In this document: positions 13,063 through 56,959 of the stretch, one piece after another
How positions within the stretch are numbered: the first letter of the stretch is position 1
How the letters are laid out: every line of letters starts with the position of its first letter
Assembly: GCA_963763655.1 (NCBI GenBank)
Contig: CAVXPY010000043.1
Span: 49,283-113,282 of the forward strand
Length of the DNA: 64,000 nucleotides
Reading direction: 5' to 3'
Source: an uncultured Chloroflexia bacterium
Lineage (GTDB): Bacteria > Chloroflexota > Chloroflexia > Thermomicrobiales > JALYUS01
The notes under the pieces: model-generated
Database searches by the model: none
Told to the model about the DNA's origin: nothing
Seen by the model: the letters and a program-made list of their open reading frames with translations, nothing else
Program-made: the position numbers and the translations under genes

Positions 13063-13100
13063 ACTCAGTCCTTAGTCCTCAGTCCTCAGTCCTTCGTCCT
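13063..13100. repeat. tandem heptanucleotide array (AGTCCTC/AGTCCTT x5)
   Basis: cactcagtccttagtcctcagtcctcagtccttcgtcct. It directly abuts the stop codon of the EF-G-like gene on the minus strand. Confidence 0.75.
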
Positions 13101-15191
13101 TATGTCGCCGCTGCGGCGGCTTCGTGGCGCGCGTGCGACTCCTTGATGATCGTCTCTTGCAAGTGCGCGGGGACGGTTTCGTAGCGGTCGAAGTGCATCG
13201 AGAAGGTGCCGCGTCCCTGCGTCATCGAGCGGAGATCGGTCGCGTAGCGCTGCACTTCGGCGAGCGGGGCGTCTGCCTCGATCGTCGTGAAGCCGCGACC
13301 GGGGTTCATGCCATGGACGCGCGCGCGCTTGCTGTTCAGGTCGCTCATGATGTCGCCGGTGTAGGAGTCCGGGACGGTGATCTCAAGGTGATAGACCGGC
13401 TCCAGGAGGACCGGATGCGCCTTCTGCGCCGCTTCCTTGAAGCCCTGCGATCCGGCGATCTTGAAGGCCATTTCGGAGGAGTCCACCGCGATGATACTTG
13501 CCGTCCGTCAGGGTCACGCGGACATTCGTCACCGGGAAGCCGGCGAGAAAGCCCTCGTGTAGGGACTCGCGGATACCCTTCTCGACTGCCGGGATGAAGT
13601 TCTTCGGCACATTGCCGCCGACGACCGTGTCCTTGAACTCGAAATCGTTGTCCGTGGTCGGCTCAACGATCAGGACGACTTCTGCGAACTGGCCGTGACC
13701 GCCCGTCTGCTTTTTGTGGCGGCTGGTGACCTGCGCCGTGCCCTGCACCGTCTCGCGGTACGGGACGACGGGCATATCGAGGTCCACATTGACGCCGAAC
13801 TTGCGCGCCATCCGCTCCGTCGCGATCTGGACATGCGAATCGCCCATGCCGGAGACGAGCGTGTCGCCCGTCACGGGGTCGCGGTCGATATGGATCGTCG
13901 GGTCCTCCTCAACGAGGCGATGCAGGCTCGTCCCCAGCTTGTCGAGGTCGCCCTTGCTCTTCGGGCGCACCGCGACGGTGTAAGACGGGTTCGGGAAATG
14001 GACGCCATCGAGGACGATAGGGTGTTCCGGCGCGCAGAGCGTGTCGCCCGTCGCGGCTTCCGCGAGTTTCGTCACCGCGCCGATGTCGCCGGGGCCGACA
14101 TCCCCGACTGCGGTTTGCTCTTTGCCGCGCACGACGTAGAGGCTGCCGATATGCTCATTCTTGGCATGGTTGGCGTCCAGGAGATTGGTGTTGCCGTGGA
14201 CGGTGCCCGTGTAGACGCGGAAATACGTCAGCTTGCCGACGTACGGGTCCGCCATCGTCTTGAAGACGAGCGCGACTGCCGGTTCGCTCGCGCCAACTTT
14301 AATGGCTGCAGGCTTACCGTCCGTGGTCTGCGCAGCGAGGCCCGCGCTGTCCGCACCGGGAAGAATATCGACAATCGCATCGAGTAGCGCGCTCGTTCCG
14401 GTCACCTTCTGGCAGGCACCCACGAGGACGGGGATGATATCGCCCGCCGCGACGGCTTTCCGCATCGCCGCCTTCAGTTCGTCCTCGCCAATCTCCTCAT
14501 CGCCGAGGAAGCGTTCGATCAGGTCGTCGTCCGTCTCCGCGATCTTCTCGACGAGCGCCAACCGCGCTTCCTCGACGGCGTCCGTCATGTCGCCGGGGAT
14601 GCTCGTCGCGGTCATGCTGCCATCGTTCTTACCATTCGCGGTGTAGGCGGTGCGGCTGAGGAGGTCCACATAGCCAGCGAAGGACGCCTCGCTGCCGATT
14701 GGCAGGTGGAGGGGGATGATGGCGCTTCCCCACGCCTCCTGCACCTGTTGGAGGGTGCGGGCGAAGTTCGCGTTCTCGCGGTCGAGCTTGTTCATGAAAA
14801 CGAGGCGTGGAAGCCGCGCCTCGTCGCTATATGCCCAGACTTGCTCGGTGCCGACCTCCACACCGGAGGCGGCGCAAAGCACAATGACCGCGGCGTCCGC
14901 CGCACGGAGGGCGGATTTGATCTCGCCGACGAAGTCCGCATAGCCGGGCGCATCGAGGAGGTTGATCTTGTGATCGCGCCATTCGAGCGGCAGGACCGAG
15001 GTACTGACGGAGATGTGGCGCTTGATCTCGTCTGGGTCCCAGTCCGAAATCGTGTTGCCGTCCTCGACGCGACCGAGGCGCGTCGTGGCTTTCGCGGTAA
15101 ACAGCATCGCTTCGCTGAGCGTTGTCTTCCCCGCGCCACCGTGCGAGAGCAGGACAATGTTGCGCAGTCTCTCAGGGGGATACTGTTTCAT
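13100..15191 (-). CDS. EF-G-family translational GTPase (EF-G paralogue); one apparent frameshift near 13490
   Basis: ATG at 15189-15191 with a GGAGG SD. G1 motif 'HGGAGKTT' and G3 motif 'DAPGYADF'. The domain II-V blocks are present. The C-terminal domain V ('...HFDRYETVPAHLQETIIKES') lies in ORF 13100..13486. Confidence 0.8.
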
Positions 15192-15536
15192 CGCGGGTAC
15201 CTCCAACCTGTGCCGAGGCGGCAGGGTTGCCGCCATACGATCGATCACACCGACCCCTCGGCCGGTGGGGGACAGAAGCCACATGAGGCGCGGCTTGATG
15301 CCATCGGGTCCATCGTCTTCGGTGGCGAATAGCGGTCGCATTTGTGATACGACAAGGCCAAAGCGCGTCGGGCATCATTGCGGCCCGGCGATATTCATAC
15401 GGTATCCGCTAGTATCGCACGGTCGCGGCGGTTGTCAATTTACGTTCCGATAACATCGCGGATCGTCGCTATGCCTCTCCGTCCTCAAGCGGGTGAGGCG
15501 GAGAATACGGTATGCTTCCCCTATTGGCTGTTTTCG

Positions 15537-16662: not shown

Positions 16663-16796
16663 CCCTAACCCCCCGACCCCCTTCCCCACGGGGGAAGGGG
16701 GAGTCAGCCGATTGAAGGTCTGCGGCCAATGCATCAGGGCACAATCTCCAGATGAGTCACCCCCTTCCTTTTAGGGATGGGGGCCGGGGGGTTAGG
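16663..16796. repeat. composite of two family-B hairpin elements in opposite orientation (16663-16694 and 16758-16796)
   Basis: ccctaaccccccgacccccttccccacgggggaagggggag ... cacccccttccttttagggatgggggccggggggttagg. Confidence 0.7.
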
Positions 16797-16797
16797 T

Positions 16798-17034
16798 ATG
16801 GATCACCTGGAACAGCAACTGATCGAGGCGCGTGATGCGCTGACTGAGTATTGGGAGCAGCCGGAGGGGCAGGCGTGCGTGCTCGCACTCCGCGTAGCGG
16901 CGGATGCGCTGGCGGACTTTGCGGAAGTGGATCGAGTGGCGGCGCGGCGGCAGGATGCGGACGCCTGGCGGCGCATCGAAACACTCGTCGATGAGATCGC
17001 CCGGCTCCGCGCGCCACTGCAAGGCGAGATGTAA
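16798..17034 (+). CDS. hypothetical small protein (78 aa)
   Basis: An ORF with no recognisable homology. The coding-looking segment lies between two repeats/genes. Confidence 0.35.
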   Translation: MDHLEQQLIEARDALTEYWEQPEGQACVLALRVAADALADFAEVDRVAARRQDADAWRRIETLVDEIARLRAPLQGEM

Positions 17035-17040
17035 GCGGAT

Positions 17041-17736
17041 TTACCTGCCCGCGATCTTGTTGAATTCGCTGAGAACCAGGTCAATATCGGGGCGATCCCC
17101 AAGATCGGTGCCGATGTAGCGCCACTTGACGACGCCGTTCTTATCGAGGATGTAGGTGGAGGGATAGGCGATGCCGCCCTCGATCGGCACGAGGACATCC
17201 GCCGGATTGAGCAGGCCATAGGCGTGGATGGCGCGGCGCTGTGGGTCGGAGAGGGTCGGGAAGGTAAGCCCGAGTTGTTGCGCATCCGGCAGGCCATCGC
17301 GCAGGTGCTGCTGGTCGTCCGCGCTGAGGGCGAGCACGTCGCCGCCCTTCGCCCGAATCGCCGCGATATGCTCTTGCAGCCCACCGAGCTGCGCGACGCA
17401 GTGGCTTCAGCCAAAGGTGCGGAAGAAGAGGATGATTGTCGGCTTGCCCCGGAAGTCGTGGAGCGAGACGGGCTCATTCTTCGCGTTCGGGAGGGTGAAA
17501 TCCGGTGCCGTCTCGCCAACCTTCACCGGCGCGCGGTCGCCGGGTGTCGTTGGGGGCGTGTAGTGATCGTCGGTGCCACCGCCGAGGGCGTTGATGAGCA
17601 GAATGGCGACCAATCCCACGAGCAGCGCCGCCCCGCCAAGGGGGAGGGCGAGGCGGGGGATCGCGTTCTTTCGTGATCGTGCGGTGGTCGTCACAGTGCT
17701 CCCTCGTAATCGGTTCGATTCTTCTGCATCATACAA
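17041..17736 (-). CDS. membrane-anchored redoxin (AhpC/TSA/TlpA-like thiol:disulfide oxidoreductase) with an in-frame TGA at the first position of its CxxC motif (candidate selenocysteine, U-S-H-C)
   Basis: ORFs 17407..17736 and 17041..17337 are in the same frame. The only interruption is the TGA at 17407-17409, which falls exactly at 'ILFFRTFG[TGA]SHCVAQLGG', the position of the resolving CxxC cysteine. The N-terminal TM helix, the 'APDFTLP...GKP' block and the C-terminal redoxin fold are present. Confidence 0.7.
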
Positions 17737-17744
17737 CGCCGCGT

Positions 17745-18533
17745 CTACGGGTGCGATGGGTTTGCGCGATGCATCACGTAGATGCCGTAGAGCGTCAAAT
17801 CATCATCGACGGAGTCGATCACCGATGTACCCTCTGCGATGATAGTGGCGAGAAATCCGGTCGCGATAACGCGCGGCGTTCCGCCCAGCTCGCGGGCCAT
17901 CCGTGTCACCAGCCCCTCGACCAGCCCGATATAGCCGAGCACGACACCGGAGCGCATGGCGTCCACGGTGTTCGTGCCAATGGCGTGGTCCGGCGCTTTC
18001 AGTTCGATGCTGTAGAGTTGTGCCGCCCGCCCGGCGAGCGCTTCGAGCGAGAGGGCGAGGCCGGGGGCAATCGCGGTGCCGACATAGTCGCCGTCCGCAC
18101 TGACGCAACTGAAAGTTGTCGCGGTGCCGAAACCAATGACGATAGCCGGGCCGCCATAGCGATGATAGGCCGCCGCACAGTTCATCACGAGATCGGCCCC
18201 CGCCTCCTCCGGTCGGTCGATCCGCACGCCGACGCCGAGGTCCACCCCCGGCCCGGCGACGAGCGGCGTGAGGTGCAGATAGCGCGTGCAGAGATCGCGC
18301 AGTTGCACGAGCACCTGCGGCACGACGGACGAGATCGCGACGGCGGAAACATCGGCGGGCGCGTGCCCGCTCGTGTGTAGCAGGGTAGCGAGTTGCACCC
18401 ACCATTCATCCGCCGTGCGCCCGCGATCGGTGGCGATGCGCCAGAGATGGAGCGGTCGCGCATCCGCGCCCGCATCGTTCGAGTAGAGGCCGAACTTGGT
18501 ATTGGTATTCGAGAGATCTATTGCCAGTAGCAT
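17745..18533 (-). CDS. coaX: type III pantothenate kinase
   Basis: 262 aa, intact. 'MLLAIDLSNTNTKFGLY' and 'GIYVM' with an acetate/sugar-kinase fold are typical of CoaX. Confidence 0.85.
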   Translation of the reverse strand: MLLAIDLSNTNTKFGLYSNDAGADARPLHLWRIATDRGRTADEWWVQLATLLHTSGHAPADVSAVAISSVVPQVLVQLRDLCTRYLHLTPLVAGPGVDLGVGVRIDRPEEAGADLVMNCAAAYHRYGGPAIVIGFGTATTFSCVSADGDYVGTAIAPGLALSLEALAGRAAQLYSIELKAPDHAIGTNTVDAMRSGVVLGYIGLVEGLVTRMARELGGTPRVIATGFLATIIAEGTSVIDSVDDDLTLYGIYVMHRANPSHP

Positions 18534-18587
18534 GACAGCATCCCCTATCGACCAGCAATCGACATGTAGTTGCTCAATCGACTTCCG

Positions 18588-19454
18588 CTAAGTGGGAACG
18601 CTCTGGCTCAGGTGGTTCTGTGCTCTCTCGGTTTCTTGCATCGCTTCGATGGATTGGCGACGCACGTACACACGACCATTTGCGGCATCATGGAAAGAAT
18701 CGAGTGTGCCATCCTCCATCCAGCGATATATAGTAGGGCGTGACACGCCAAGTTGGCTCGCCGCATTGCCGATGGTCATCAGCTCACTCGCATCGACTGT
18801 GTGGAGCTTCGCCTGTGAGAGCAGCTTACCAAGTGGTTCCTCCCAGAACGAGCGAGGCACCAGATACTGATCTTCACCCGGTAATCGGAATAGGAGTTCC
18901 AAAATCGCATCTACTTTCTGAAAAACCTGCTGTAGATCGGTATGTTCTTCCCCATTGGCAACACGCCCAAGGAAAAGGAGATCAGTGCCAATCGGACTGC
19001 GGCGTAACTCTGTCATCGAAACAACAGCCGGGCGTCTGCCGAGAAATCGTTGATATCGGAATGATTGGGAGTGTACGCGTTGTAACGCTTGATCGATGAC
19101 TTCCTGGGTTTGAGCATCGACAAACTCCTCTGAAGATGTATCAGCATCCTTTACATCAGAGTCTTCCACAGGTTCCTTTGGCAAGGGATCGTGGATGGAT
19201 ACACCGGCGCGGTGTTTCGCTTGTACGAGTTGGTACACTTCGTGCGCCAAATCGATGCCTGGGACGAGGAATACCTCCGTCGGTCGTGGCTCTCGTGCCA
19301 GCACTTCGCGAATAACCTCCTGCGCTCGTTCGCCTAGCGTTACGCGATTGGTCGCCTCATCGACATCTGCGATGGCTCCGCCGATGAGTAATGGCGTGCC
19401 GTCTGGCAAGATTTTCGGCCCAATGAACTCTTCTCGAACCCATTTCTGCTTCAC
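18588..19454 (-). CDS. hypothetical protein with a C-terminal excisionase/MerR-type helix-turn-helix (lower-GC islet)
   Basis: 288 aa. The C-terminus 'LMTIGNAASQLGVSRPTIYRWMEDGTLDSF' is an HTH_17-like motif. The N-terminal ~200 aa are unrecognised. GC is ~52% against ~67% in the flanks. Its start overlaps the stop of the upstream small gene (ATGA). Confidence 0.5.
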   Translation of the reverse strand: MKQKWVREEFIGPKILPDGTPLLIGGAIADVDEATNRVTLGERAQEVIREVLAREPRPTEVFLVPGIDLAHEVYQLVQAKHRAGVSIHDPLPKEPVEDSDVKDADTSSEEFVDAQTQEVIDQALQRVHSQSFRYQRFLGRRPAVVSMTELRRSPIGTDLLFLGRVANGEEHTDLQQVFQKVDAILELLFRLPGEDQYLVPRSFWEEPLGKLLSQAKLHTVDASELMTIGNAASQLGVSRPTIYRWMEDGTLDSFHDAANGRVYVRRQSIEAMQETERAQNHLSQSVPT

Positions 19455-19819
19455 CTCTGAGGATACATGACCGTTACGACAGTCATGGTGGTTGCGCGGC
19501 TGAAATCCGGATCATTGAACGCAATGACCACATCGACTTCATCGCCGTCTGCTCGCCGTCCTACGATCCGATACGTGATCCCTTCAGGATGATGAGGATT
19601 ATGACTGACAACGCGAGCATCCCTGTGAGTGATCGTAGCTTCCGCGTCTGCGAGTTCGATGTTCCGCAACATCCTGCGCTGTTCACTATGCACTGACGCT
19701 CGGACAGCGCCCTGATAAATCAATAAGACCGCGTGCTCAAGAACACGAACGTAGTGCTCCTGCGTCCTGCGATCCAAATCATTCCTCCACCCATCCTCCC
19801 GCTCACTATATGATAGCAC
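19451..19819 (-). CDS. hypothetical small protein (122 aa), DUF4258-like (putative toxin-like partner of the HTH protein)
   Basis: The C-terminal pattern '...GITYRIVGRRADGDEVDVVIAF...MTVVTVMYP' resembles the DUF4258 family. It is translationally coupled to the downstream HTH gene and lies in the low-GC segment. Confidence 0.45.
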   Translation of the reverse strand: MLSYSEREDGWRNDLDRRTQEHYVRVLEHAVLLIYQGAVRASVHSEQRRMLRNIELADAEATITHRDARVVSHNPHHPEGITYRIVGRRADGDEVDVVIAFNDPDFSRATTMTVVTVMYPQR

Positions 19820-19930
19820 GGGTCAGTTTGCGGCGGCTGGCACGATGGGCTACACTCGTGCGGGTAACCATCCCCACGCGCGAAATGAATTTCCGGGGCA
19901 ACAGCCCGTAGGATGCATGAGGGTACGACG

Positions 19931-33039: not shown

Positions 33040-36520
<3,481 letters not shown>

Positions 36521-36678
36521 GAGCCTCACCGCCATTCTCCATCGCGATGAGCGAGGAGCGAATCGAGGAGATGCGCGCGAAGCGTCATATTGCACGAGCG
36601 GCTGCGAGCTGCTCGCGCCGCTCCCCCAAACGAAATGGCGCGCTGCTCGCGCCAACGCGAAAGGGCTGGGGAACGACA

Positions 36679-41118
<4,440 letters not shown>

Positions 41119-42152: not shown

Positions 42153-44000
42153 TCAGTCCGCTGCTTGCGTCTGCATCTCCGGGGGCAGGAGATCGATGCC
42201 GCGCGCATCGCGCTGGGTGGTGGCGATCTGGATAAACTGGGCGAGCGGCATGGATTTCAAATCTTCGCCGGAGCGGAGCCGGACAGAGACCGCGCCCGCT
42301 TCGGCTTCGCGATCACCAACGACGAGCATGTACGGGATTTTCTGCACCTGCGCGTCGCGGATCTTCGCCTGCATCCGTCCGTCTGAGACGTCTGCCTCAC
42401 CCCGCAGGCCCGCCGCCTTCAGTTTGGCAACGACTTCCCGCGCGTAGTCCTGATGCCGATCCGCGATCGGAATGACCTCTGCTTGGACTGGTGCGAGCCA
42501 GACGGGGAAGGCGCCCGCGTAGTGCTCGATCAGGCCGCCGACGAACCGCTCCATCGAGCCAAGCACGGTACGATGGACCATCACCGGGCGGTGCCGCTCG
42601 CCATCGTCGCCGATGTACGACATATCGAAGCGGTCCGGCAGTTGCATAGTCTACACTGAATCGTCGGCCCCTGCCACTCGCGGCCAATTGCATCGTAGAG
42701 CTTGATGTCGATCTTCGGCGCGTAGAAGGTGCCGCCGCCCTCGTCCACTTCGTACTGCCATGCCGCGCTTCTTGAGCGCGCGGCGGAGCATCTCCGTCGC
42801 GTGCTCCCACACGTCTTCCGTGCCGACCCACTTTTCCGGTCGGGTCGCAAGATAGGCGCTGTAGGTGTAGCCGAAGGTCTGCATCATGTAATCGACGAGG
42901 TCGATGACGCCATTGACTTCGTCTTCGAGTTGATCCGGCGTGCAGAAGATGTGCGAGTCATCCTGCGTGAAGCCGCGGACGCGCAACATGCCGTGGAGCA
43001 CGCCGGAGCGCTCGTAGCGATAGACCGTGCCGAGTTCCGCCCACCGGAGGGGGAGATCGCGGTAGGAGCGCGTGCGGGTGTTGTAGATCGTGATCGCGGC
43101 GGGGCAGTTCATCGGCTTGACGTAGTAATCCGTGCCGTCAATGTCCATCGGCGATACATATTCTCGGCGTAGGACTGGAGATGACCACTCCGCTCGAAGA
43201 TCGCGCCGTTGTGGATGTGCGGCGTGTAGAGCAGATCGTAGCCGCGGTCGAAGTGGACCTGCTTCCAGAAGTCCTCGATCTCCTTGCGGATGATCGCGCC
43301 CTTCGGATGCCAGAGGATCAGGCCCGCGCCGATCTCGTCCGAGGTACTGAAGAGATCGAGTTCGCGCCCGAGGCGGCGATGATCGCGCCGTTCCGCTTCC
43401 TCCAGTTGGTGCAGGTAGGCGTCGAGGTCTTCCTGCGACTCCCACGCGGTCGCGTAGATGCGCTGCAGCTGCTGGCGATGCTCGTCGCCGCGCCAGTAGG
43501 CCCCGGCGATGCGCATCAGTTTGACCGGCCCGATCTTGCCGGTGTCCTCGACGTGCGGCCCGGCGCAGAGGTCCGTGAACGGCCCGTCGATGATAGAACG
43601 AGACTTCCTCATCCTCGGGGAGATCGTTGATCAGTTCGATTTTGTAGGGCTGGTCCTTGAAGAAGGCGCGCGCTTCGTCGCGCGGAGACGATCTTCTTGA
43701 CGAAGGGCGACTTCGCCGCGATGCGCTCCTGCATGCGCCGCTCGATCTCCGCGAAAGTCGTCCGGCGTCAGCGAGCGCGGCAGGTCGAAGTCGTAGTAGA
43801 AACCGTCCGCGATCGGCGGGCCAATGGCCAGTTTCGCGTCCGGGAAGATGTCCGAGCACCGCCTCCGCCATCACATGCGCCGCCGAGTGGCGCATCTTGC
43901 GGAGCGGGGTCCAGATGTCGTCGTCGTGCCGATCCGGTTGTACGAGTCCGGCGGCCTCCGCTTCCATCTCCTTACCGATGTCGTCGTCCTGCTCGCGCAT
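42153..44000 (-). CDS. thrS: threonine--tRNA ligase; at least 5 apparent frameshifts
   Basis: '[12 protein letters not shown]' is at the N-terminus. Class II motifs follow across shifted ORFs: '[21 protein letters not shown]', '[14 protein letters not shown]', '[36 protein letters not shown]', '[12 protein letters not shown]'. The anticodon-binding C-terminus is in ORF 42153..42647. Confidence 0.85.
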
Positions 44001-48309: not shown

Positions 48310-48747
48310 TCAGTGGCCGAGGATGTACACGCTCATTGCGCGGGGCTGCCACTGCACGTCGGTCTCTTTGAAGCGGGCGAGTAGCGCGGTCGCCTCGGCG
48401 TGCAGCGGGCGGATGCGCGGATTGCGTACCTTCCATCTGCCGGTGACCTGAAAGATCACCAGCTGGCTATCGCCGCGCACGGTGAGCGTGTACATCTTGG
48501 GCTCCAAAGATGCGGCGGTCAGGCGGGCGATGACGTCCCGCAGTGCGGCGATCAGCGTGCGGTATTCGGCCTCGTTGTTTGTCACTCGATTGCCGAACTC
48601 GAGGCGCTCGATCTGCCACAGCGCGCCGGTGCGCAGTTGGTACGAGCCGTATCCTTCGCCGGGATTTCCCCGCGCGCCGCCATCGAAGATAATCGTGTAG
48701 TCCGCATCGTTTCGTTCCATTGCGACGATGGTATCATGTCCGTACAT
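48310..48747 (-). CDS. ribonuclease H (RNase HI-like, reverse-transcriptase-type RNase H fold)
   Basis: 'IIFDGGARGNPGEGYG...NNEAEYRTLIAALR...TVRGDSQLVIFQVTGRWKV' carries the DEDD catalytic residues in their typical spacing. The start is possibly at M10 (48720). Confidence 0.75.
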   Translation of the reverse strand: MYGHDTIVAMERNDADYTIIFDGGARGNPGEGYGSYQLRTGALWQIERLEFGNRVTNNEAEYRTLIAALRDVIARLTAASLEPKMYTLTVRGDSQLVIFQVTGRWKVRNPRIRPLHAEATALLARFKETDVQWQPRAMSVYILGH

Positions 48748-48766
48748 TGCGGCAAAGGGGGAGGAG

Positions 48767-48906
48767 AGTAGGCAGTAGGCAGTAGGCAGTAGTCAGTGAC
48801 CAGAGATCGGACGTACGCGACCTGTCGCATCGCCCGACGAGCGATAGGCGCATTCTCCCTTCTGCCTACCGACTACTGACTACTGTCTACTGTCTACTGC
48901 CTACTC
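48767..48906. repeat. inverted pair of heptanucleotide arrays, (AGTAGGC)x4 and (CTACTGN)x6, around a ~63-nt spacer
   Basis: agtaggcagtaggcagtaggcagtagtcagt ... ctgcctaccgactactgactactgtctactgtctactgcctactc. It lies between the divergent RNase H and CvpA-like genes. Confidence 0.75.
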
Positions 48907-50690: not shown

Positions 50691-51149
50691 TCAGTGGCCC
50701 CACTTGCCGGCAACCTGCCTGGTGGTGGCATTGATGCGGTTGAAAAAGTTGGTCGTGGCGATCATGAGGACCAGGGCGGCAAGACCCTTCTCGTCGTAGT
50801 GCCGGGCGGCCTCGTCCCAAATCGCGTCGGGTACCGGGTCCGCCCGATCGGCGAGCCGGGTGGCAGCCTCGGTGAGGGCGAGGGCGGCACGTTCGGCGTC
50901 GGTGAAGTAGGGTGCCTCCCGCCAGGCCGCCACGGTGAAGAGACGCTCGTCTGTTTCGCCCGCCTTCTTGGCGCTGCGTGCGCCCGAATCTACGCAGGCG
51001 CTACAGCCATTGATCTGGCTCGCGCGCAGATGGACAAGCTCAAGCGTCGCCGACGGCACGCCGCCTTGTCTCGTGGCCTTGATCAGCGCGCCAACGGCAT
51101 CCATGCTGTCAGGAAGGATCATTCCCGGGTTGCTCATTCGTGCTTGCAT
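50691..51149 (-). CDS. carboxymuconolactone decarboxylase-family (AhpD-like) protein
   Basis: 'ATLELVHLRASQINGCSACVDSGA' is the AhpD-core CxxC-containing motif. The start is taken at M34 of ORF 50691..51248. Confidence 0.7.
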   Translation of the reverse strand: MQARMSNPGMILPDSMDAVGALIKATRQGGVPSATLELVHLRASQINGCSACVDSGARSAKKAGETDERLFTVAAWREAPYFTDAERAALALTEAATRLADRADPVPDAIWDEAARHYDEKGLAALVLMIATTNFFNRINATTRQVAGKWGH

Positions 51150-51341
51150 GAGTACGCTCCTTGTGGTGGCTTGAGGGCTCTTTGTCGAACCGAGATGCCG
51201 AAAATATCGACGTTTCGCAGTCTCCTTGTCACATCGGCTGGGTTTCATCCGTCACTCCTATGACGGAACGCGACGAGGGGAATGAACCGATGAAGTCCGC
51301 TCGTCACTACATTGACGAAACATCACGAAGGAATGTGACCG

Positions 51342-52217
51342 ATGGACGAACACGAATGGCTGGCGGCGCAATTTGAGACCAACCGGACCCACCTGCGGGC
51401 GGTAGCGTATCGGATGCTCGGCTCCCTGAGCGAAGCGGAGGACGCCGTCCAGGAGTCCTGGCTCCGCCTCAGCCGCGTGGACACGAGCGGCGTCACGAAT
51501 CTCGGGGGATGGCTGACGACGATCGTCGCGCGCGTCTGCCTCGACATGCTTCGCTCGCGCAAGTCGCGGCGCGAGGAGCCGCTGGGAGCGTACGCGCCGG
51601 ACCCAATCGCGAGTCGTGCAGAGGGGATCGACCCTGAGTACGAGGCGCTTCTGGCCGACTCGGTCGGTCTCGCGCTCCTCGTGGTACTCAATACGCTCGC
51701 TCCCGCTGAGCGCCTGGCCTTCGTGCTGCACGATATGTTCGCCGTGCCCTTCGACGAGATTGCTCCCATCGTCGGACGCTCCCCGACTGCGGCACGGCAA
51801 CTCGCGAGCCGTGCCCGTCGCCGGGTGCAGGGAACGGCAACGGTTCCCGATGGCGAGCTCACCCGCCAGCGCGCCGTGGTCGATGCCTTCCTCGCCGCCG
51901 CGCGCGCTGGCGACATCGAGACGCTTGTCGCGCTGCTCGACCCCGATGTGGTGTTCCGCGCTGACCGTGCAGCCGTGGCGGTGGGCGCATTGAGCGAGGT
52001 CTGCGGGGCGTCAGCGGTGGCGAAGCAGTTCGTGGGGCGTGCCCAGCTCGCACAACCGGCGCTCGTCAACGGAGCGGTGGGATTCATGGTAGCCCCGCGT
52101 GGACAGCTATTTCTCGTATTCGGTCTGACAATCACGGAGGGGAAGATCGCCACGATCGACGTGGTCGCCGACCCCGCGCACCTCCGCCAATTCGACCTGG
52201 CGGTCCTCGACGACTGA
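51342..52217 (+). CDS. ECF sigma factor with a C-terminal SnoaL-like extension (ECF41/SigJ-like)
   Basis: Intact, 291 aa. Region 2 'EDAVQESWLRL', region 4 'VLHDMFAVPFDEIAPIVGRSPTAARQLASRAR' and a ~100-aa C-terminal extension are present. It is divergent from the AhpD-like gene. Confidence 0.8.
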   Translation: MDEHEWLAAQFETNRTHLRAVAYRMLGSLSEAEDAVQESWLRLSRVDTSGVTNLGGWLTTIVARVCLDMLRSRKSRREEPLGAYAPDPIASRAEGIDPEYEALLADSVGLALLVVLNTLAPAERLAFVLHDMFAVPFDEIAPIVGRSPTAARQLASRARRRVQGTATVPDGELTRQRAVVDAFLAAARAGDIETLVALLDPDVVFRADRAAVAVGALSEVCGASAVAKQFVGRAQLAQPALVNGAVGFMVAPRGQLFLVFGLTITEGKIATIDVVADPAHLRQFDLAVLDD

Positions 52218-55789: not shown

Positions 55790-55895
55790 AGCAATGAGCA
55801 ATGAGCAATGAGCTAATGAGGGGTGAGGACTGAGGACTAAGGACTGAGGACCGAATAGGGAGTCTTCTGGCTACTGCCTACTGCCTACGGTCTAC
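55790..55895. repeat. three different heptanucleotide arrays back to back: (GCAATGA)x4, (GAGGACT)x4, (CTACTGC)x3
   Basis: gagcaatgagcaatgagcaatgagctaatgag gggtgaggactgaggactaaggactgaggacc ... ctactgcctactgcctacggtctactc. It lies just upstream of ltaE. Confidence 0.75.
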
Positions 55896-55912
55896 TCGGA
55901 GGGGAGGGTTCG

Positions 55913-56959
55913 ATGGCACAGCGGCTCGTAGATTTGCGCAGCGACACGGTTACACGACCGACACCGGCGATGCGCCGGGCGATGGCGGAGGCGGAGGTCG
56001 GCGACGATCAGTACGGTGAGGACCCGACCGTCAACCGGCTCGAAGACGCTCGCGGCGGAAATGCTCGGCAAGGAAGCCTCGCTCTTTGTGGTCGGCGGCA
56101 CGATGGGCAATCTCTGCTGCGGTGCTGGCGCATTGCCAGCGCGGGCAGGAAGTGATTATGGGCGACCAGTGCCACATCTTCCTCTATGAAGCGGGCGGCA
56201 CCGCAGTGCTCGGTGGCCTGCCGTGGCGCGTCCTGCCCAATACCCGCTAGGGCATGATCGAGCCGGAGGCGATTCGCCGAGGCGATTCGTGGCGACCGGG
56301 AAGGGGAACCGCCGACGGGCGTCCTCTGTGTCGAGAATACGCATAACCGTTGCGGTGGCTTGCCGCTCAACCGCGCGAGCGATCAAGTCGATGGCGGATG
56401 TCGCGCACGAGCATGGTATTCCGGTCCATATGGATGGCGCGCGCGTCTTCAATGCCGCTGCCGCGCTCGGTGTCCCGGTCGCGGAGATCGTGCAGGATGT
56501 CGATTCCGTCCAGTTCTGTCTCTCGAAGGGGCTTGCCTCGCCCGTCGGTTCGATGATCGCCGGTTCAGCGGATTTCATCGCCCGCGCTCGGCGGCATGCG
56601 GCGGATCGTCGGCGGCGCGATGCGGCAGGCAGGCGTCCTCGCTGCTGCCGCGATCATCAGCCTCACCGAGATGGTCGATCGCCTGCCGGAGGATCACACG
56701 CGGGCGCGGCGGCTCGCCGAAGGGTTCGCGGATGTCCCCGGTATCGACATCGACCTCGATCTCGTGCAATCGAATATGGTCTTCTACAAACTCGATCCGC
56801 CGAACCCCGACGTTCGCTGCGGAGATGAAGGCGCAGGGGGTGCTCGTTGGCGGTGGGCAGTACGGTGGCCGGATGGTCACACATTACGAGATCACCGACG
56901 CGGATATCGACACGGCGATGATGGCGGCGCGGAAGACCGTTACCGCGCTGTCGCGGTAG
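55913..56959 (+). CDS. ltaE: low-specificity L-threonine aldolase; about 5 apparent frameshifts plus one in-frame TAG (56248-56250)
   Basis: '[44 protein letters not shown]' is at the N-terminus. The PLP region '[42 protein letters not shown]' and the C-terminus lie in shifted ORFs. Confidence 0.7.

What the first reader, a model, noticed from the sequence alone, without database searches (positions are those of the whole stretch)
17041..17736. Redoxin with a single in-frame TGA exactly at the first Cys of its CxxC motif: selenoprotein candidate (U-S-H-C)
The AhpC/TSA/TlpA-like redoxin is one continuous 231-codon reading frame except for one TGA at 17407-17409. That codon sits precisely where the N-terminal active-site cysteine of the CxxC motif belongs (…ILFFRTFG-[TGA]-SHCVAQLGG…). 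Replacement of the attacking Cys by Sec in thioredoxin-fold proteins (UxxC) is the classic architecture of bacterial Prx-like and Trx-like selenoproteins. A small stem-loop begins ~14 nt downstream of the UGA on the mRNA: stem GCAGC/GCUGC with apical loop UCGGUGG containing GGU, plus-strand coordinates 17376-17392. That is roughly the position where bacterial SECIS elements sit, though it is short. Everything outside the TGA is in frame, so this is not one of the indel-type breaks that riddle the window.
Basis: partly seen in the sequence, partly recalled or inferred. Interest (0 to 1): 0.7.

Follow-up and report, generated by a model that had tools for sequence, protein, structure and literature searches.

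The report
Selenocysteine redoxin gene, not a broken gene
The single in-frame TGA in this membrane-anchored peroxiredoxin-fold redoxin is almost certainly a genuine selenocysteine codon with its own recoding hairpin, which makes the gene a new member of an already known family of bacterial selenoproteins.

Summary
The minus-strand gene 17041-17694 encodes a 217-residue AhpC/TSA-fold redoxin with one in-frame TGA (17407-17409) at the first position of a U-S-H-C motif.

- **Same TGA elsewhere.** It sits at the same codon in every close orthologue recovered (four further distinct sequences, 62-82% identical overall, from many independent short-read assemblies). It is also there in four distant family members. 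One orthologue has TGC (Cys).
- **Translation continues past it.** dN/dS is 0.09-0.38 downstream and 0.13-0.37 upstream of the TGA.
- **Hairpin.** A 17-nt hairpin (GCAGCUC-GGU-GGGCUGC, -9.2 kcal/mol) lies 14 nt after the UGA.
  - It meets all four published bacterial SECIS criteria.
  - It is nucleotide-invariant across the Sec orthologues despite near-saturated synonymous divergence.
  - Distant members keep it through compensatory and wobble changes.
  - The Cys form lacks it (-1.3 kcal/mol).
- **Error and recoding excluded.** The window assembly is riddled with indels (rpoB, rpoC and EF-G are broken), but an error cannot explain a TGA shared across lineages. TGA is also the commonest normal stop in the window.

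The gene fits the known "Prx-like thiol:disulfide oxidoreductase (PF00578, UxxC)" selenoprotein family. The organism is a soil Thermomicrobiales bacterium (Chloroflexota). The Sec machinery (selA, selB, selC, selD) is not in the window and could not be tested.

The parts
17041..17694 (-). Full selenoprotein coding sequence: 217 residues plus TAA stop, read through the TGA. The GTG start at 17694 is inferred; TTG at 17736 is the alternative.
   Evidence: Searches give the frame. Pfam AhpC-TSA 4e-29; dN/dS is 0.09-0.38 downstream and 0.13-0.37 upstream of the TGA.
17407..17409 (-). Sec (UGA) codon, residue 96, first position of the U-S-H-C redox motif.
   Evidence: The same codon is TGA in L005, L010-L015, L008, L001-L004 and L016-L020, and TGC in L006.
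17398..17400 (-). TGC codon of the second (resolving) Cys of UxxC. It aligns with the peroxidatic Cys of BCP peroxiredoxins.
   Evidence: alignment to PDB 2cx3: query 'ffrtfgCshCvaqL' against 'ffpaafSpvCtkeL'.
17376..17392 (-). SECIS-like minihelix: 7-bp stem GCAGCUC/GGGCUGC with a GGU triloop, 14 nt after the UGA. It is encoded by the codons for (A)QLGGL(Q).
   Evidence: -9.2 kcal/mol in all Sec forms, -1.3 in the Cys form; 6 of 6 codons invariant against 25 of 93 elsewhere (Fisher p = 6.6e-4); 98% of cells paired, one compensatory pair; the motif matches once in the window and once in each of the 14 loci that match it.
17584..17652 (-). N-terminal hydrophobic segment (residues ~15-37, LALPLGGAALLVGLVAILLINAL) after a basic stretch. 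It is read as a signal anchor that puts the redox domain outside the cytoplasmic membrane.
   Evidence: Sequence. The AlphaFold model of the Cys orthologue P0001 has one long helix at residues 19-39 before the Prx fold. Orthologues L001 and L008 instead carry SRR plus a lipobox, LLVAC and LAAC.
17122..17520 (-). AhpC/TSA (peroxiredoxin-fold) domain, residues 59-191.
   Evidence: The model of the Cys orthologue matches Bcp4 (3hjp, target-normalised TM 0.89) and AhpE (4x1u, target-normalised TM 0.83-0.85).
17699..17705 (-). Shine-Dalgarno-like GAGGGAG, 4 nt before the GTG at 17694.
   Evidence: Read directly. Its function is inferred.
17745..18533 (-). Upstream coaX (type III pantothenate kinase) on the same strand, 50 nt before the redoxin start. 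Probably co-transcribed with it.
   Evidence: Pan_kinase 5.7e-64. The coaX-redoxin order is conserved in L001-L004, L006 and L010-L012. No promoter-like or terminator-like site was found between the two genes.

Best explanation
The gene encodes a genuine selenoprotein: a peroxiredoxin-fold (AhpC/TSA) thiol:disulfide oxidoreductase with a Sec-Ser-His-Cys active site, anchored by one N-terminal transmembrane segment.

Recoding (inferred). During translation the UGA at 17407-17409 is read as selenocysteine. The mRNA folds into a 17-nt hairpin (7 bp plus a GGU loop) 14 nt downstream. By analogy with E. coli fdhF, this hairpin would tether SelB-GTP-Sec-tRNASec to the ribosome approaching the UGA.

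Chemistry (inferred). The selenolate at the N-terminus of helix alpha-1 attacks a disulfide or an oxidised substrate, and Cys99 resolves the selenenylsulfide.

Shown here:
- conservation of the UGA;
- the Sec/Cys pair;
- translation of the downstream half;
- conservation of the hairpin and its fit to the bacterial SECIS model;
- the fold;
- loss of the canonical peroxiredoxin Pro/Thr/Arg residues.

Inferred: SelB binding, actual selenium insertion, export topology and the substrate.
For: 1. The TGA is at the identical codon in close orthologues from independent assemblies.
- L005 (82% identical).
- L010-L015 (79% over the whole protein; the C-terminal half, P0026, is 89% identical). These are six Logan short-read assemblies from different runs.
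- L008 (68%).
- L001-L004 (62%; one JGI and three Logan assemblies, identical to each other in the gene).

2. The TGA is also at that codon in distant family members L016, L017, L018 and L019/L020, which are 31-38% identical.

3. Orthologue L006 (P0001) has TGC there, in FGCGHC.

4. dN/dS downstream of the TGA (0.09-0.38) equals that upstream (0.13-0.37), with dS of 0.6-1.7.

5. The six hairpin codons are nucleotide-invariant in the four Sec orthologues, against 25 of 93 conserved-residue codons elsewhere (Fisher p = 6.6e-4). This is the longest such run in the gene.

6. The hairpin is -9.2 kcal/mol in the Sec forms and -1.3 in the Cys form. Distant members keep it through changes.
- U.G to U-A in L016, L017, L018 and L019.
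- G-C to C-G in L018.
- G-C to G.U in L019.
Overall, 98% of cells are paired, against 14-61% when the 3' partners are slid.

7. All four criteria of the published bacterial SECIS model are met.
- Loop of 3-9 nt: here 3.
- Stem of 4-16 bp: here 7.
- G in the first two loop positions: here GG.
- 16-37 nt from the UGA to the loop: here 21.
- MFE of -7.5 kcal/mol or lower: here -9.2.
(Criteria from PMC13188914; values.)

8. TGA is the ordinary and commonest stop in the window, ending 13 of 24 confident genes.

9. Of the 150 best cluster representatives matching the C-terminal half, 49 are full-length CxxC forms. Another 72 are ~100-aa fragments that start within 12 residues after the redox codon, the signature of gene calls cut by the same in-frame stop.

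10. A 'Prx-like' selenoprotein family defined by PF00578 and UxxC is already catalogued (PMC2398784 Table 2, PMC1088965, PMC1794560, PMC9312934).
Against: - No selA, selB, selD or tRNA-Sec lies in the 64-kb window or in any fetched locus. The rest of the genome could not be searched.
- The hairpin alone is not statistically unusual for this G+C-rich DNA: z = -0.83, and 3.5% of all UGA triplets have one as good.
- Covariation is thin: one compensatory pair, and 59 of 500 shuffles reach the observed score. The hairpin is nearly invariant and also encodes a conserved QLGxLQ peptide.
- The window assembly is demonstrably error-prone.
- The closest NCBI relative by purA (L021, 93% identical) lacks the redoxin gene at the syntenic site. 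The trait is therefore not universal in this group.
Confidence: 0.9

Rival explanations
1. The TGA is a substitution error of a noisy long-read assembly. The real codon would be TGC or TGT, and the protein an ordinary CxxC redoxin.
For: The window is full of errors. EF-G, rpoB, rpoC, an aminoacyl-tRNA synthetase and ltaE are split over several frames, whereas EF-G is intact at 694 aa in relative L021. An in-frame TAG also sits in the ltaE region at 56248.
Against: - The same TGA is present in at least 12 independent assemblies of four other orthologous lineages, mostly short-read, and in four distant family members.
- The errors documented in the window are mainly indels (the TAG at 56248 is the only other in-frame stop seen). 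This gene has none.
Confidence: 0.02
2. The gene is a pseudogene, or a gene genuinely split by a nonsense mutation. Only the N-terminal 95 residues would be made, possibly with a separately initiated C-terminal fragment.
For: - Gene callers split the gene in all relatives. The C-terminal piece starts at ATG or GTG four codons after the TGA in L001, L005, L008 and L010.
- The gene is dispensable, being absent in L021.
Against: - Purifying selection is equally strong on both halves, across dS up to 1.7.
- The stop sits at exactly the catalytic Cys position in lineages 31-82% identical.
- Either fragment alone would lack a complete thioredoxin fold, and the C-terminal fragment would lack the redox motif.
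- In the window the codon after SHC is GTC, not a start codon.
- Synonymous sites of the hairpin are conserved.
Confidence: 0.03
3. The UGA is read through without selenium. This could be near-cognate Trp or Cys insertion stimulated by the hairpin, or a lineage-wide reassignment of UGA.
For: The Sec machinery was not observed. A downstream hairpin can also stimulate generic readthrough.
Against: - UGA terminates 13 of 24 confident genes in the window, so there is no reassignment.
- The position is the redox-active Cys of a CxxC motif, and a Cys orthologue exists, which is the hallmark of Sec/Cys exchange.
- The hairpin's geometry and GG(U) loop fit the SelB-type model.
- The family is already known to contain UxxC selenoproteins.
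Confidence: 0.04

Closest known systems
Prx-like thiol:disulfide oxidoreductase selenoproteins (PF00578, UxxC/UxxU; 'Prx-like 1' of the GOS and Sargasso Sea surveys; reference WP_010940744.1)
   Same: - Same Pfam domain (PF00578).
- Sec at the first position of a thioredoxin-like UxxC motif that replaces the TxxC of true peroxiredoxins.
- Cys-containing homologues are common.
- A SECIS hairpin lies directly downstream of the UGA.
   Different: - This clade comes from soil Thermomicrobiales (Chloroflexota), not from the Deltaproteobacteria, Clostridia or marine plankton in which the family was described.
- It carries an N-terminal membrane anchor or lipoprotein signal and a conserved HYxPPTTPGD linker.
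- It is linked to coaX.
E. coli fdhF-type bacterial SECIS element (SelB-binding minihelix)
   Same: - A short hairpin inside the coding region just 3' of the UGA.
- G followed by U in a small apical loop.
- It fits the bacterial SECIS consensus (PMC13188914).
- From my own memory, not tested here: the minimal functional fdhF element is also a ~17-nt minihelix, 11 nt from the UGA.
   Different: - The spacing here is 14 nt, one codon more.
- The loop is a GGU triloop, and the 7-bp stem has no bulged U.
- SelB binding is inferred, not shown.
BCP/PrxQ and AhpE 1-Cys/atypical 2-Cys peroxiredoxins (PDB 2cx3, 3hjp, 4x1u)
   Same: - Best sequence match in the PDB is 2cx3 at 8.6e-18.
- Best structural matches of the modelled Cys orthologue are 3hjp (target-normalised TM 0.89) and 4x1u (target-normalised TM 0.83-0.85).
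- The second Cys of UxxC aligns with the peroxidatic Cys.
   Different: - The catalytic Pro of PxxxTxxC is Arg here.
- The Thr/Ser is Sec.
- The conserved Arg is missing: the sequence reads ...IAYPSTY... where relatives have ...IARPATF....

The chemistry is therefore expected to be CxxC-type disulfide exchange rather than classical peroxidase catalysis.
ResA/TlpA-type extracytoplasmic thiol-disulfide oxidoreductases, and the NCBIfam 'SelL-related redox protein' (NF040769)
   Same: - A membrane-anchored thioredoxin-fold domain with CxxC at the start of helix alpha-1.
- Weak matches to both models: 54 bits each.
   Different: - Both scores are far below the curated cut-offs of 120 and 170 bits.
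- No CcdA or DsbD partner gene appears in the neighbourhood.
- The fold carries the Prx-specific insertions.

Membership tests
Bacterial selenoprotein gene (UGA recoded as Sec via an in-frame SECIS) | In-frame UGA aligned with a conserved, redox-active Cys in homologues (Sec/Cys pair) | tested here: met
   The orthologue in L006 (P0001) has TGC at this codon. 49 of 55 full-length representatives have CxxC there.
Bacterial selenoprotein gene (UGA recoded as Sec via an in-frame SECIS) | UGA conserved at the same codon in homologues from other organisms or assemblies | tested here: met
   TGA in L005, L010-L015, L008, L001-L004, L016, L017, L018 and L019/L020.
Bacterial selenoprotein gene (UGA recoded as Sec via an in-frame SECIS) | Reading frame downstream of the UGA under purifying selection | tested here: met
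   dN/dS is 0.09-0.38 downstream against 0.13-0.37 upstream.
Bacterial selenoprotein gene (UGA recoded as Sec via an in-frame SECIS) | Bacterial SECIS consensus: 3-9 nt apical loop, 4-16 bp upper stem, G in the first two loop positions, 16-37 nt from the UGA to the loop, MFE of -7.5 kcal/mol or lower (PMC13188914) | tested here: met
   Loop GGU (3 nt), 7-bp stem, 21-nt spacing, -9.2 kcal/mol. Criteria quoted. Base rate: 10% of UGA triplets in this window pass.
Bacterial selenoprotein gene (UGA recoded as Sec via an in-frame SECIS) | Hairpin conserved beyond what the coding sequence requires, and specific to the Sec forms | tested here: met
   6 of 6 hairpin codons are nucleotide-invariant against 25 of 93 elsewhere, p = 6.6e-4. 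The Cys form folds at only -1.3 kcal/mol. There is one compensatory pair and two pairs with one-sided changes. Covariation alone is weak (59 of 500 shuffles).
Bacterial selenoprotein gene (UGA recoded as Sec via an in-frame SECIS) | selA, selB, selC (tRNA-Sec) and selD present in the same genome | not testable with these tools
   None in the window or fetched loci. The window's purA protein, the one product looked up, is not on record.
Bacterial selenoprotein gene (UGA recoded as Sec via an in-frame SECIS) | Selenium actually incorporated at the UGA | not testable with these tools
   Needs 75Se labelling or mass spectrometry.
Prx-like thiol:disulfide oxidoreductase selenoprotein family (PF00578, UxxC) | AhpC-TSA (PF00578) domain | tested here: met
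   4e-29, 101.5 bits against a cut-off of 26.
Prx-like thiol:disulfide oxidoreductase selenoprotein family (PF00578, UxxC) | Sec in a UxxC motif occupying the position of the peroxiredoxin TxxC | tested here: met
   U-S-H-C. In the alignment to BCP 2cx3, U aligns with Ser and the second Cys with the peroxidatic Cys.
Prx-like thiol:disulfide oxidoreductase selenoprotein family (PF00578, UxxC) | Demonstrable homology to the family's reference sequence (WP_010940744.1) | not tested
Canonical peroxiredoxin (BCP/PrxQ/AhpE) | PxxxT/SxxC active-site motif with the conserved Pro and Thr/Ser | tested here: not met
   FFRTFG-U-SHC: Pro is replaced by Arg and Thr/Ser by Sec (alignment).
Canonical peroxiredoxin (BCP/PrxQ/AhpE) | Conserved catalytic Arg before the beta-strand ...R..F(I/V)ID | tested here: not met
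   The window has GIAYPSTYILD. BCP has AKRAVFIV, and family members P0030 and P0046 have IARPATF.
Canonical peroxiredoxin (BCP/PrxQ/AhpE) | Prx fold | tested here: met
   AlphaFold model of the Cys orthologue P0001: pLDDT 84.6. Foldseek 3hjp 2.2e-14 with target-normalised TM 0.89. The model is of the orthologue, not of the window protein itself.
ResA/TlpA extracytoplasmic thiol-disulfide oxidoreductases | Score above the curated family threshold (NF002854, 170 bits) | tested here: not met
   54.1 bits.
ResA/TlpA extracytoplasmic thiol-disulfide oxidoreductases | N-terminal membrane anchor or signal placing a CxxC domain outside the cytoplasm | tested here: inconclusive
   A hydrophobic segment at residues 15-37 follows a basic stretch. 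The orthologue model has a helix at residues 19-39. L001 and L008 have SRR plus a lipobox. No dedicated topology predictor was available.

The most novel reading that the evidence does not exclude
This would be the first documented case of Sec decoding in soil Thermomicrobiales, an aerobic Chloroflexota lineage for which I found no report of Sec use. The selenoprotein would act outside the cytoplasmic membrane, TM-anchored here and a possibly Tat-exported lipoprotein in sister lineages.

Its 17-nt SECIS minihelix is almost sequence-invariant across very distant members of the family, because it doubles as the codons for a conserved QLGxLQ helix segment. That would make the family a clean natural system for asking two questions.
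- How does a SECIS evolve out of pre-existing coding sequence?
- How do Sec and Cys forms, and outright gene loss, interconvert within one genus-level group?
Probability: 0.4. Interest if true: 0.4.

Novelty: new member of a known kind. Interest (0 to 1): 0.3.

Why it matters
- **Annotation.** Gene callers split this gene into two fragments in every assembly examined. Dozens of ~100-residue 'proteins' in public catalogues are the C-terminal halves of such UxxC selenoproteins.
- **Biology.** It implies that a soil Thermomicrobiales lineage maintains the whole selenocysteine apparatus. It also shows a Sec form, a Cys form and gene absence side by side among close relatives.
- **The scan.** An in-frame stop in a badly error-ridden assembly can still be rescued as real by comparative evidence.
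- **Limits.** It does not change what is known about how bacterial Sec insertion works.

Tried and rejected
- **Genome-collection scan with the orthologue alignment.** Only one distant Microbacteriaceae hit (31% identical), so the organism is not represented and its Sec genes could not be sought there.
- **Metagenome scan.** Only two further loci: L008, which was useful, and L009, a C-terminal fragment.
- **Exact-sequence look-up of the window's purA.** Not on record, so the source assembly could not be located.
- **Rfam, at gathering thresholds on the whole window and permissive on 17300-17480.** Nothing relevant. No general bacterial SECIS family matched.
- **MFE z-score of the region.** Not significant. 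The hairpin alone was rejected as evidence.
- **Covariation test.** Consistent with the structure but weak, because the hairpin hardly varies.
- **tblastn against plasmids.** Only ordinary redoxins at 32% identity or less.
- **Literature search for Sec use in Thermomicrobiales.** Sec machinery is documented only in Dehalococcoidia among Chloroflexota.
- **The small UGGC/GCCA stem around the UGA seen.** Rejected, because it is not conserved in L001 or L008.
- **The CMD/AhpD-like gene at 50691-51251, checked as a possible second selenoprotein.** It has an ordinary Cys motif, CSAC.
Full report
**1. What is in the sequence**

On the minus strand, 17041-17736 is one open frame interrupted only by TGA at 17407-17409, in the context ...KPTIILFFRTFG-TGA-SHCVAQLGGLQEH.... 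The most plausible start is GTG at 17694. It lies 4 nt after a GAGGGAG and 50 nt downstream of the stop of coaX on the same strand. That start gives a 217-residue product with the TGA at codon 96.

With Cys substituted for the stop, the protein matches Pfam AhpC-TSA (PF00578, 4e-29) and Redoxin (4.5e-20). It folds best as a 7-bp stem with a GGU triloop, GCAGCUC-GGU-GGGCUGC, at -9.2 kcal/mol.

**2. Is it more than chance or error?**

Taken alone, it is not.
- The 76-nt region folds no better than shuffled sequence (z = -0.83).
- 10% of all UGA triplets in this 64% G+C window are followed by a perfect hairpin that passes the bacterial SECIS criteria. 3.5% have one as good as this.
- The assembly is poor. 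EF-G, rpoB, rpoC, an aminoacyl-tRNA synthetase and ltaE are each spread over several frames. EF-G is an intact 694-residue gene in a relative (L021).

The case therefore rests on comparison with other sequences.

**3. Comparative evidence for the UGA**

A protein search returned one full-length orthologue with Cys: P0001, motif FGCGHC. It also returned several C-terminal fragments that begin immediately after the xxC. Reading the DNA showed why: the gene is cut by TGA at the identical codon in each of these.
- L005 (82% identical).
- L001-L004 (62% identical; one JGI and three Logan assemblies, identical to each other in the gene).
- L008 (68% identical; GenBank metagenome contig JAABUQ010002877).
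- L010-L015 (79% over the whole protein, and 89% for the C-terminal half, P0026; six different sequencing runs).

Four much more distant family members, 31-38% identical, also have TGA there.
- L016, on a 682-kb ENA contig.
- L017.
- L018, in NCBI MAG GCA_016934455.1.
- L019/L020.

Their motifs are U-V-H-C, U-G-I-C, U-I-Y-C and U-M-P-C. The Cys orthologue L006 has TGC.

Synonymous divergence among the Sec orthologues is 0.6-1.7 per site. dN/dS is the same downstream of the TGA (0.09-0.38) as upstream (0.13-0.37). The 3' half is therefore translated in the same frame. A sequencing error, a recent nonsense mutation or a decaying pseudogene cannot produce this pattern.

TGA ends 13 of 24 confident genes in the window, so the genetic code is standard.

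**4. Comparative evidence for the hairpin**

In a codon alignment of the four Sec orthologues, the longest run of nucleotide-identical codons in the whole gene is GCG CAG CTC GGT GGG CTG, at codons +5 to +10 after the UGA. The next longest run is three codons. All six are invariant. Of the other codons whose amino acid is conserved, 25 of 93 are invariant (Fisher p = 6.6e-4). In the Cys orthologue all six codons differ, and the hairpin collapses to -1.3 kcal/mol.

The distant Sec members keep a hairpin at the same 14-nt distance, with changes that preserve pairing.
- U.G to U-A in L016, L017, L018 and L019.
- G-C to G.U in L019.
- G-C to C-G, a double change, in L018.

Their loops are GGU, GGC, GGG or CGGGC. 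Over eight distinct sequences, 98% of pair cells are standard pairs, against 14-61% when the 3' partners are slid by one to three columns. There is only one compensatory pair, and 59 of 500 column shuffles do as well. Covariation is therefore supportive but not decisive. The strong signals are the synonymous-site conservation and the contrast between Sec and Cys forms.

The hairpin motif matches once in the window and once in each of the 14 loci that match it, always in this gene.

**5. Fit to the published SECIS model**

The consensus model quoted in PMC13188914 sets four criteria. All are met.

| Criterion | Required | Here |
|---|---|---|
| Apical loop | 3-9 nt | 3 nt |
| Upper stem | 4-16 bp | 7 bp |
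| G in the first two loop positions, usually followed by G or U | yes | G-G-U |
| UGA to loop | 16-37 nt | 21 nt |
| MFE | -7.5 kcal/mol or lower | -9.2 kcal/mol |

From my own memory, not tested here: the minimal E. coli fdhF SECIS is likewise a ~17-nt minihelix, placed 11 nt from the UGA. The geometry here is one codon longer.

**6. What the protein is**

*Closest solved structures.* The best PDB sequence match is Aeropyrum pernix BCP (2cx3, 8.6e-18). In that alignment the second Cys of U-S-H-C falls on the peroxidatic Cys, and the Sec falls on the Ser/Thr of the PxxxT/SxxC motif. This is exactly the relationship described for 'Prx-like' UxxC selenoproteins (PMC1088965).

*Catalytic residues.* The peroxiredoxin Pro is Arg here. 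The catalytic Arg is missing: the window has IAYPSTY where relatives have IARPATF. A thioredoxin-like disulfide-exchange mechanism is therefore more likely than classical peroxidase chemistry. This is an inference.

*Curated models.* No NCBIfam model reaches its cut-off. The top matches are 'SelL-related redox protein', ResA and BCP, at about 50-54 bits.

*Structure model.* An AlphaFold model of the Cys orthologue P0001 (pLDDT 84.6) shows three things.
- One long N-terminal helix at residues 19-39.
- A Prx fold, closest to Sulfolobus Bcp4 (target-normalised TM 0.89) and M. tuberculosis AhpE (target-normalised TM 0.83-0.85).
- The CxxC at the first turn of a helix spanning residues 95-105.

*Location.* The window protein has a basic stretch followed by a 23-residue hydrophobic segment. 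Orthologues L001 and L008 instead have SRR plus a lipobox (LLVAC, LAAC). The redox domain is therefore probably outside the cytoplasmic membrane. This is inferred, since no topology predictor was available.

*Operon context.* The gene follows coaX in all lineages that have it. No promoter-like or terminator-like site lies between the two genes.

**7. How widespread the family is**

An exhaustive HMMER search with the C-terminal half found 755 cluster representatives (E-value up to 0.001). The best 150 break down as follows.
- 55 are full-length: 49 CxxC, 5 SxxC and 1 TxxC.
- 72 are ~100-residue fragments that start within 12 residues after the redox codon.
- The remaining 23 are fragments that start further downstream.

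Five of the fragment type were checked at the DNA level, and all had TGA. This matches the literature.
- 'Prx-like 1 (pfam00578, UxxC)' had 225 selenoprotein sequences in the GOS survey (PMC2398784).
- 'Prx-like thiol:disulfide oxidoreductase' is listed among bacterial selenoprotein families (PMC1794560, PMC5029168, PMC9312934, PMC13188914).

**8. Organism and distribution**

The window's purA is 94% identical to a protein named 'MAG: Thermomicrobiales bacterium', so the source is a Chloroflexota bacterium of that order. The samples I recognise among those holding the orthologues look like soil, but sample descriptions were not retrieved.

Among close relatives the gene occurs in three states.
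- As a Sec form in the window, L005, L010-L015, L008 and L001-L004.
- As a Cys form in L006.
- Absent from the syntenic site in L021 (GCA_038231255.1). There the M42 peptidase gene, a small ORF and coaX abut directly, and tblastn finds nothing.

In the literature I could search, Sec machinery in Chloroflexota is documented for Dehalococcoidia (PMC4918011, PMC13326102). I found nothing for Thermomicrobiales.

**9. What could not be tested**

No selA, selB, selD or tRNA-Sec is in the window or in any fetched locus.
- tRNA and Rfam scans.
- Pfam on about 50 ORFs.

The presence of the machinery is therefore inferred from the selenoprotein gene, not observed.

**10. Verdict**

Confidence is about 0.9. 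Interest is modest, for three reasons.
- It corrects a systematic mis-annotation.
- It implies Sec decoding in a soil Thermomicrobiales lineage.
- It offers a tidy set of Sec form, Cys form and gene loss among close relatives.

The mechanism and the family are already known.

Noticed in passing
window 13100-15374, 33316-41118, 42153-44000, 55800-56900: Essential genes are split over two or more reading frames: EF-G, rpoB, rpoC, a class II aminoacyl-tRNA synthetase, and also ltaE. EF-G is intact in relative L021. This points to uncorrected indel errors of the assembly rather than pseudogenes. The TAG at 56248 lies in the frameshift-ridden ltaE stretch and is probably an error too.
   Followed up: partly
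window 18500-19850: G+C drops to 0.51-0.56 against 0.64 in the flanks. The segment holds a 288-aa ORF with an excisionase/HTH_17 domain (18588-19454, minus strand) and a 122-aa ORF with no family match (19451-19819, minus strand). Neither ORF's counterpart is present between coaX and purA in relatives L010 and L021, so this looks like a small foreign insertion.
   Followed up: partly
L021 8185-8447 (NCBI GCA_038231255.1, JBBRLR010000008.1), syntenic to window 16777-17745: The closest NCBI relative (purA 93% identical) has no redoxin gene at the syntenic site. The small ORF after the M42 peptidase gene abuts coaX with a 17-nt gap, and tblastn finds no remnant. The selenoprotein gene is thus present or absent among close relatives.
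   Followed up: partly
L001 9746-9830; L008 9911-10000: Orthologues of the redoxin in two sister lineages begin with SRR followed by a lipobox (LLVAC, LAAC) instead of the transmembrane anchor seen in the window. This suggests a lipoprotein, possibly Tat-exported, form of the same selenoprotein.
   Followed up: no
window 50691-51251 (-) and 51339-52217 (+): A CMD/AhpD-like protein with an ordinary Cys motif (NGCSACV) lies divergent to an ECF-type sigma factor gene. AhpD-like proteins are another family with known Sec forms, but this one is the Cys form.
   Followed up: yes
protein representatives P0026-P0175: 72 of the 150 best matches to the C-terminal half are ~100-residue 'proteins' that start within 12 residues after the redox codon. 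Public protein catalogues therefore hold many truncated halves of UxxC Prx-like selenoproteins. One recurrent subgroup starts M[AS]ELRGLG, which hints at a different SECIS sequence.
   Followed up: partly
window 17520-17580 and orthologues: A strictly conserved HYxPPTTPGD segment links the membrane anchor to the redoxin domain in all orthologues, both Sec and Cys forms. Its role is unknown.
   Followed up: no
window 48310-48792 (-): An ORF with an RVT_3 (reverse-transcriptase-like/RNase H-like) domain, 1.4e-9.
   Followed up: no
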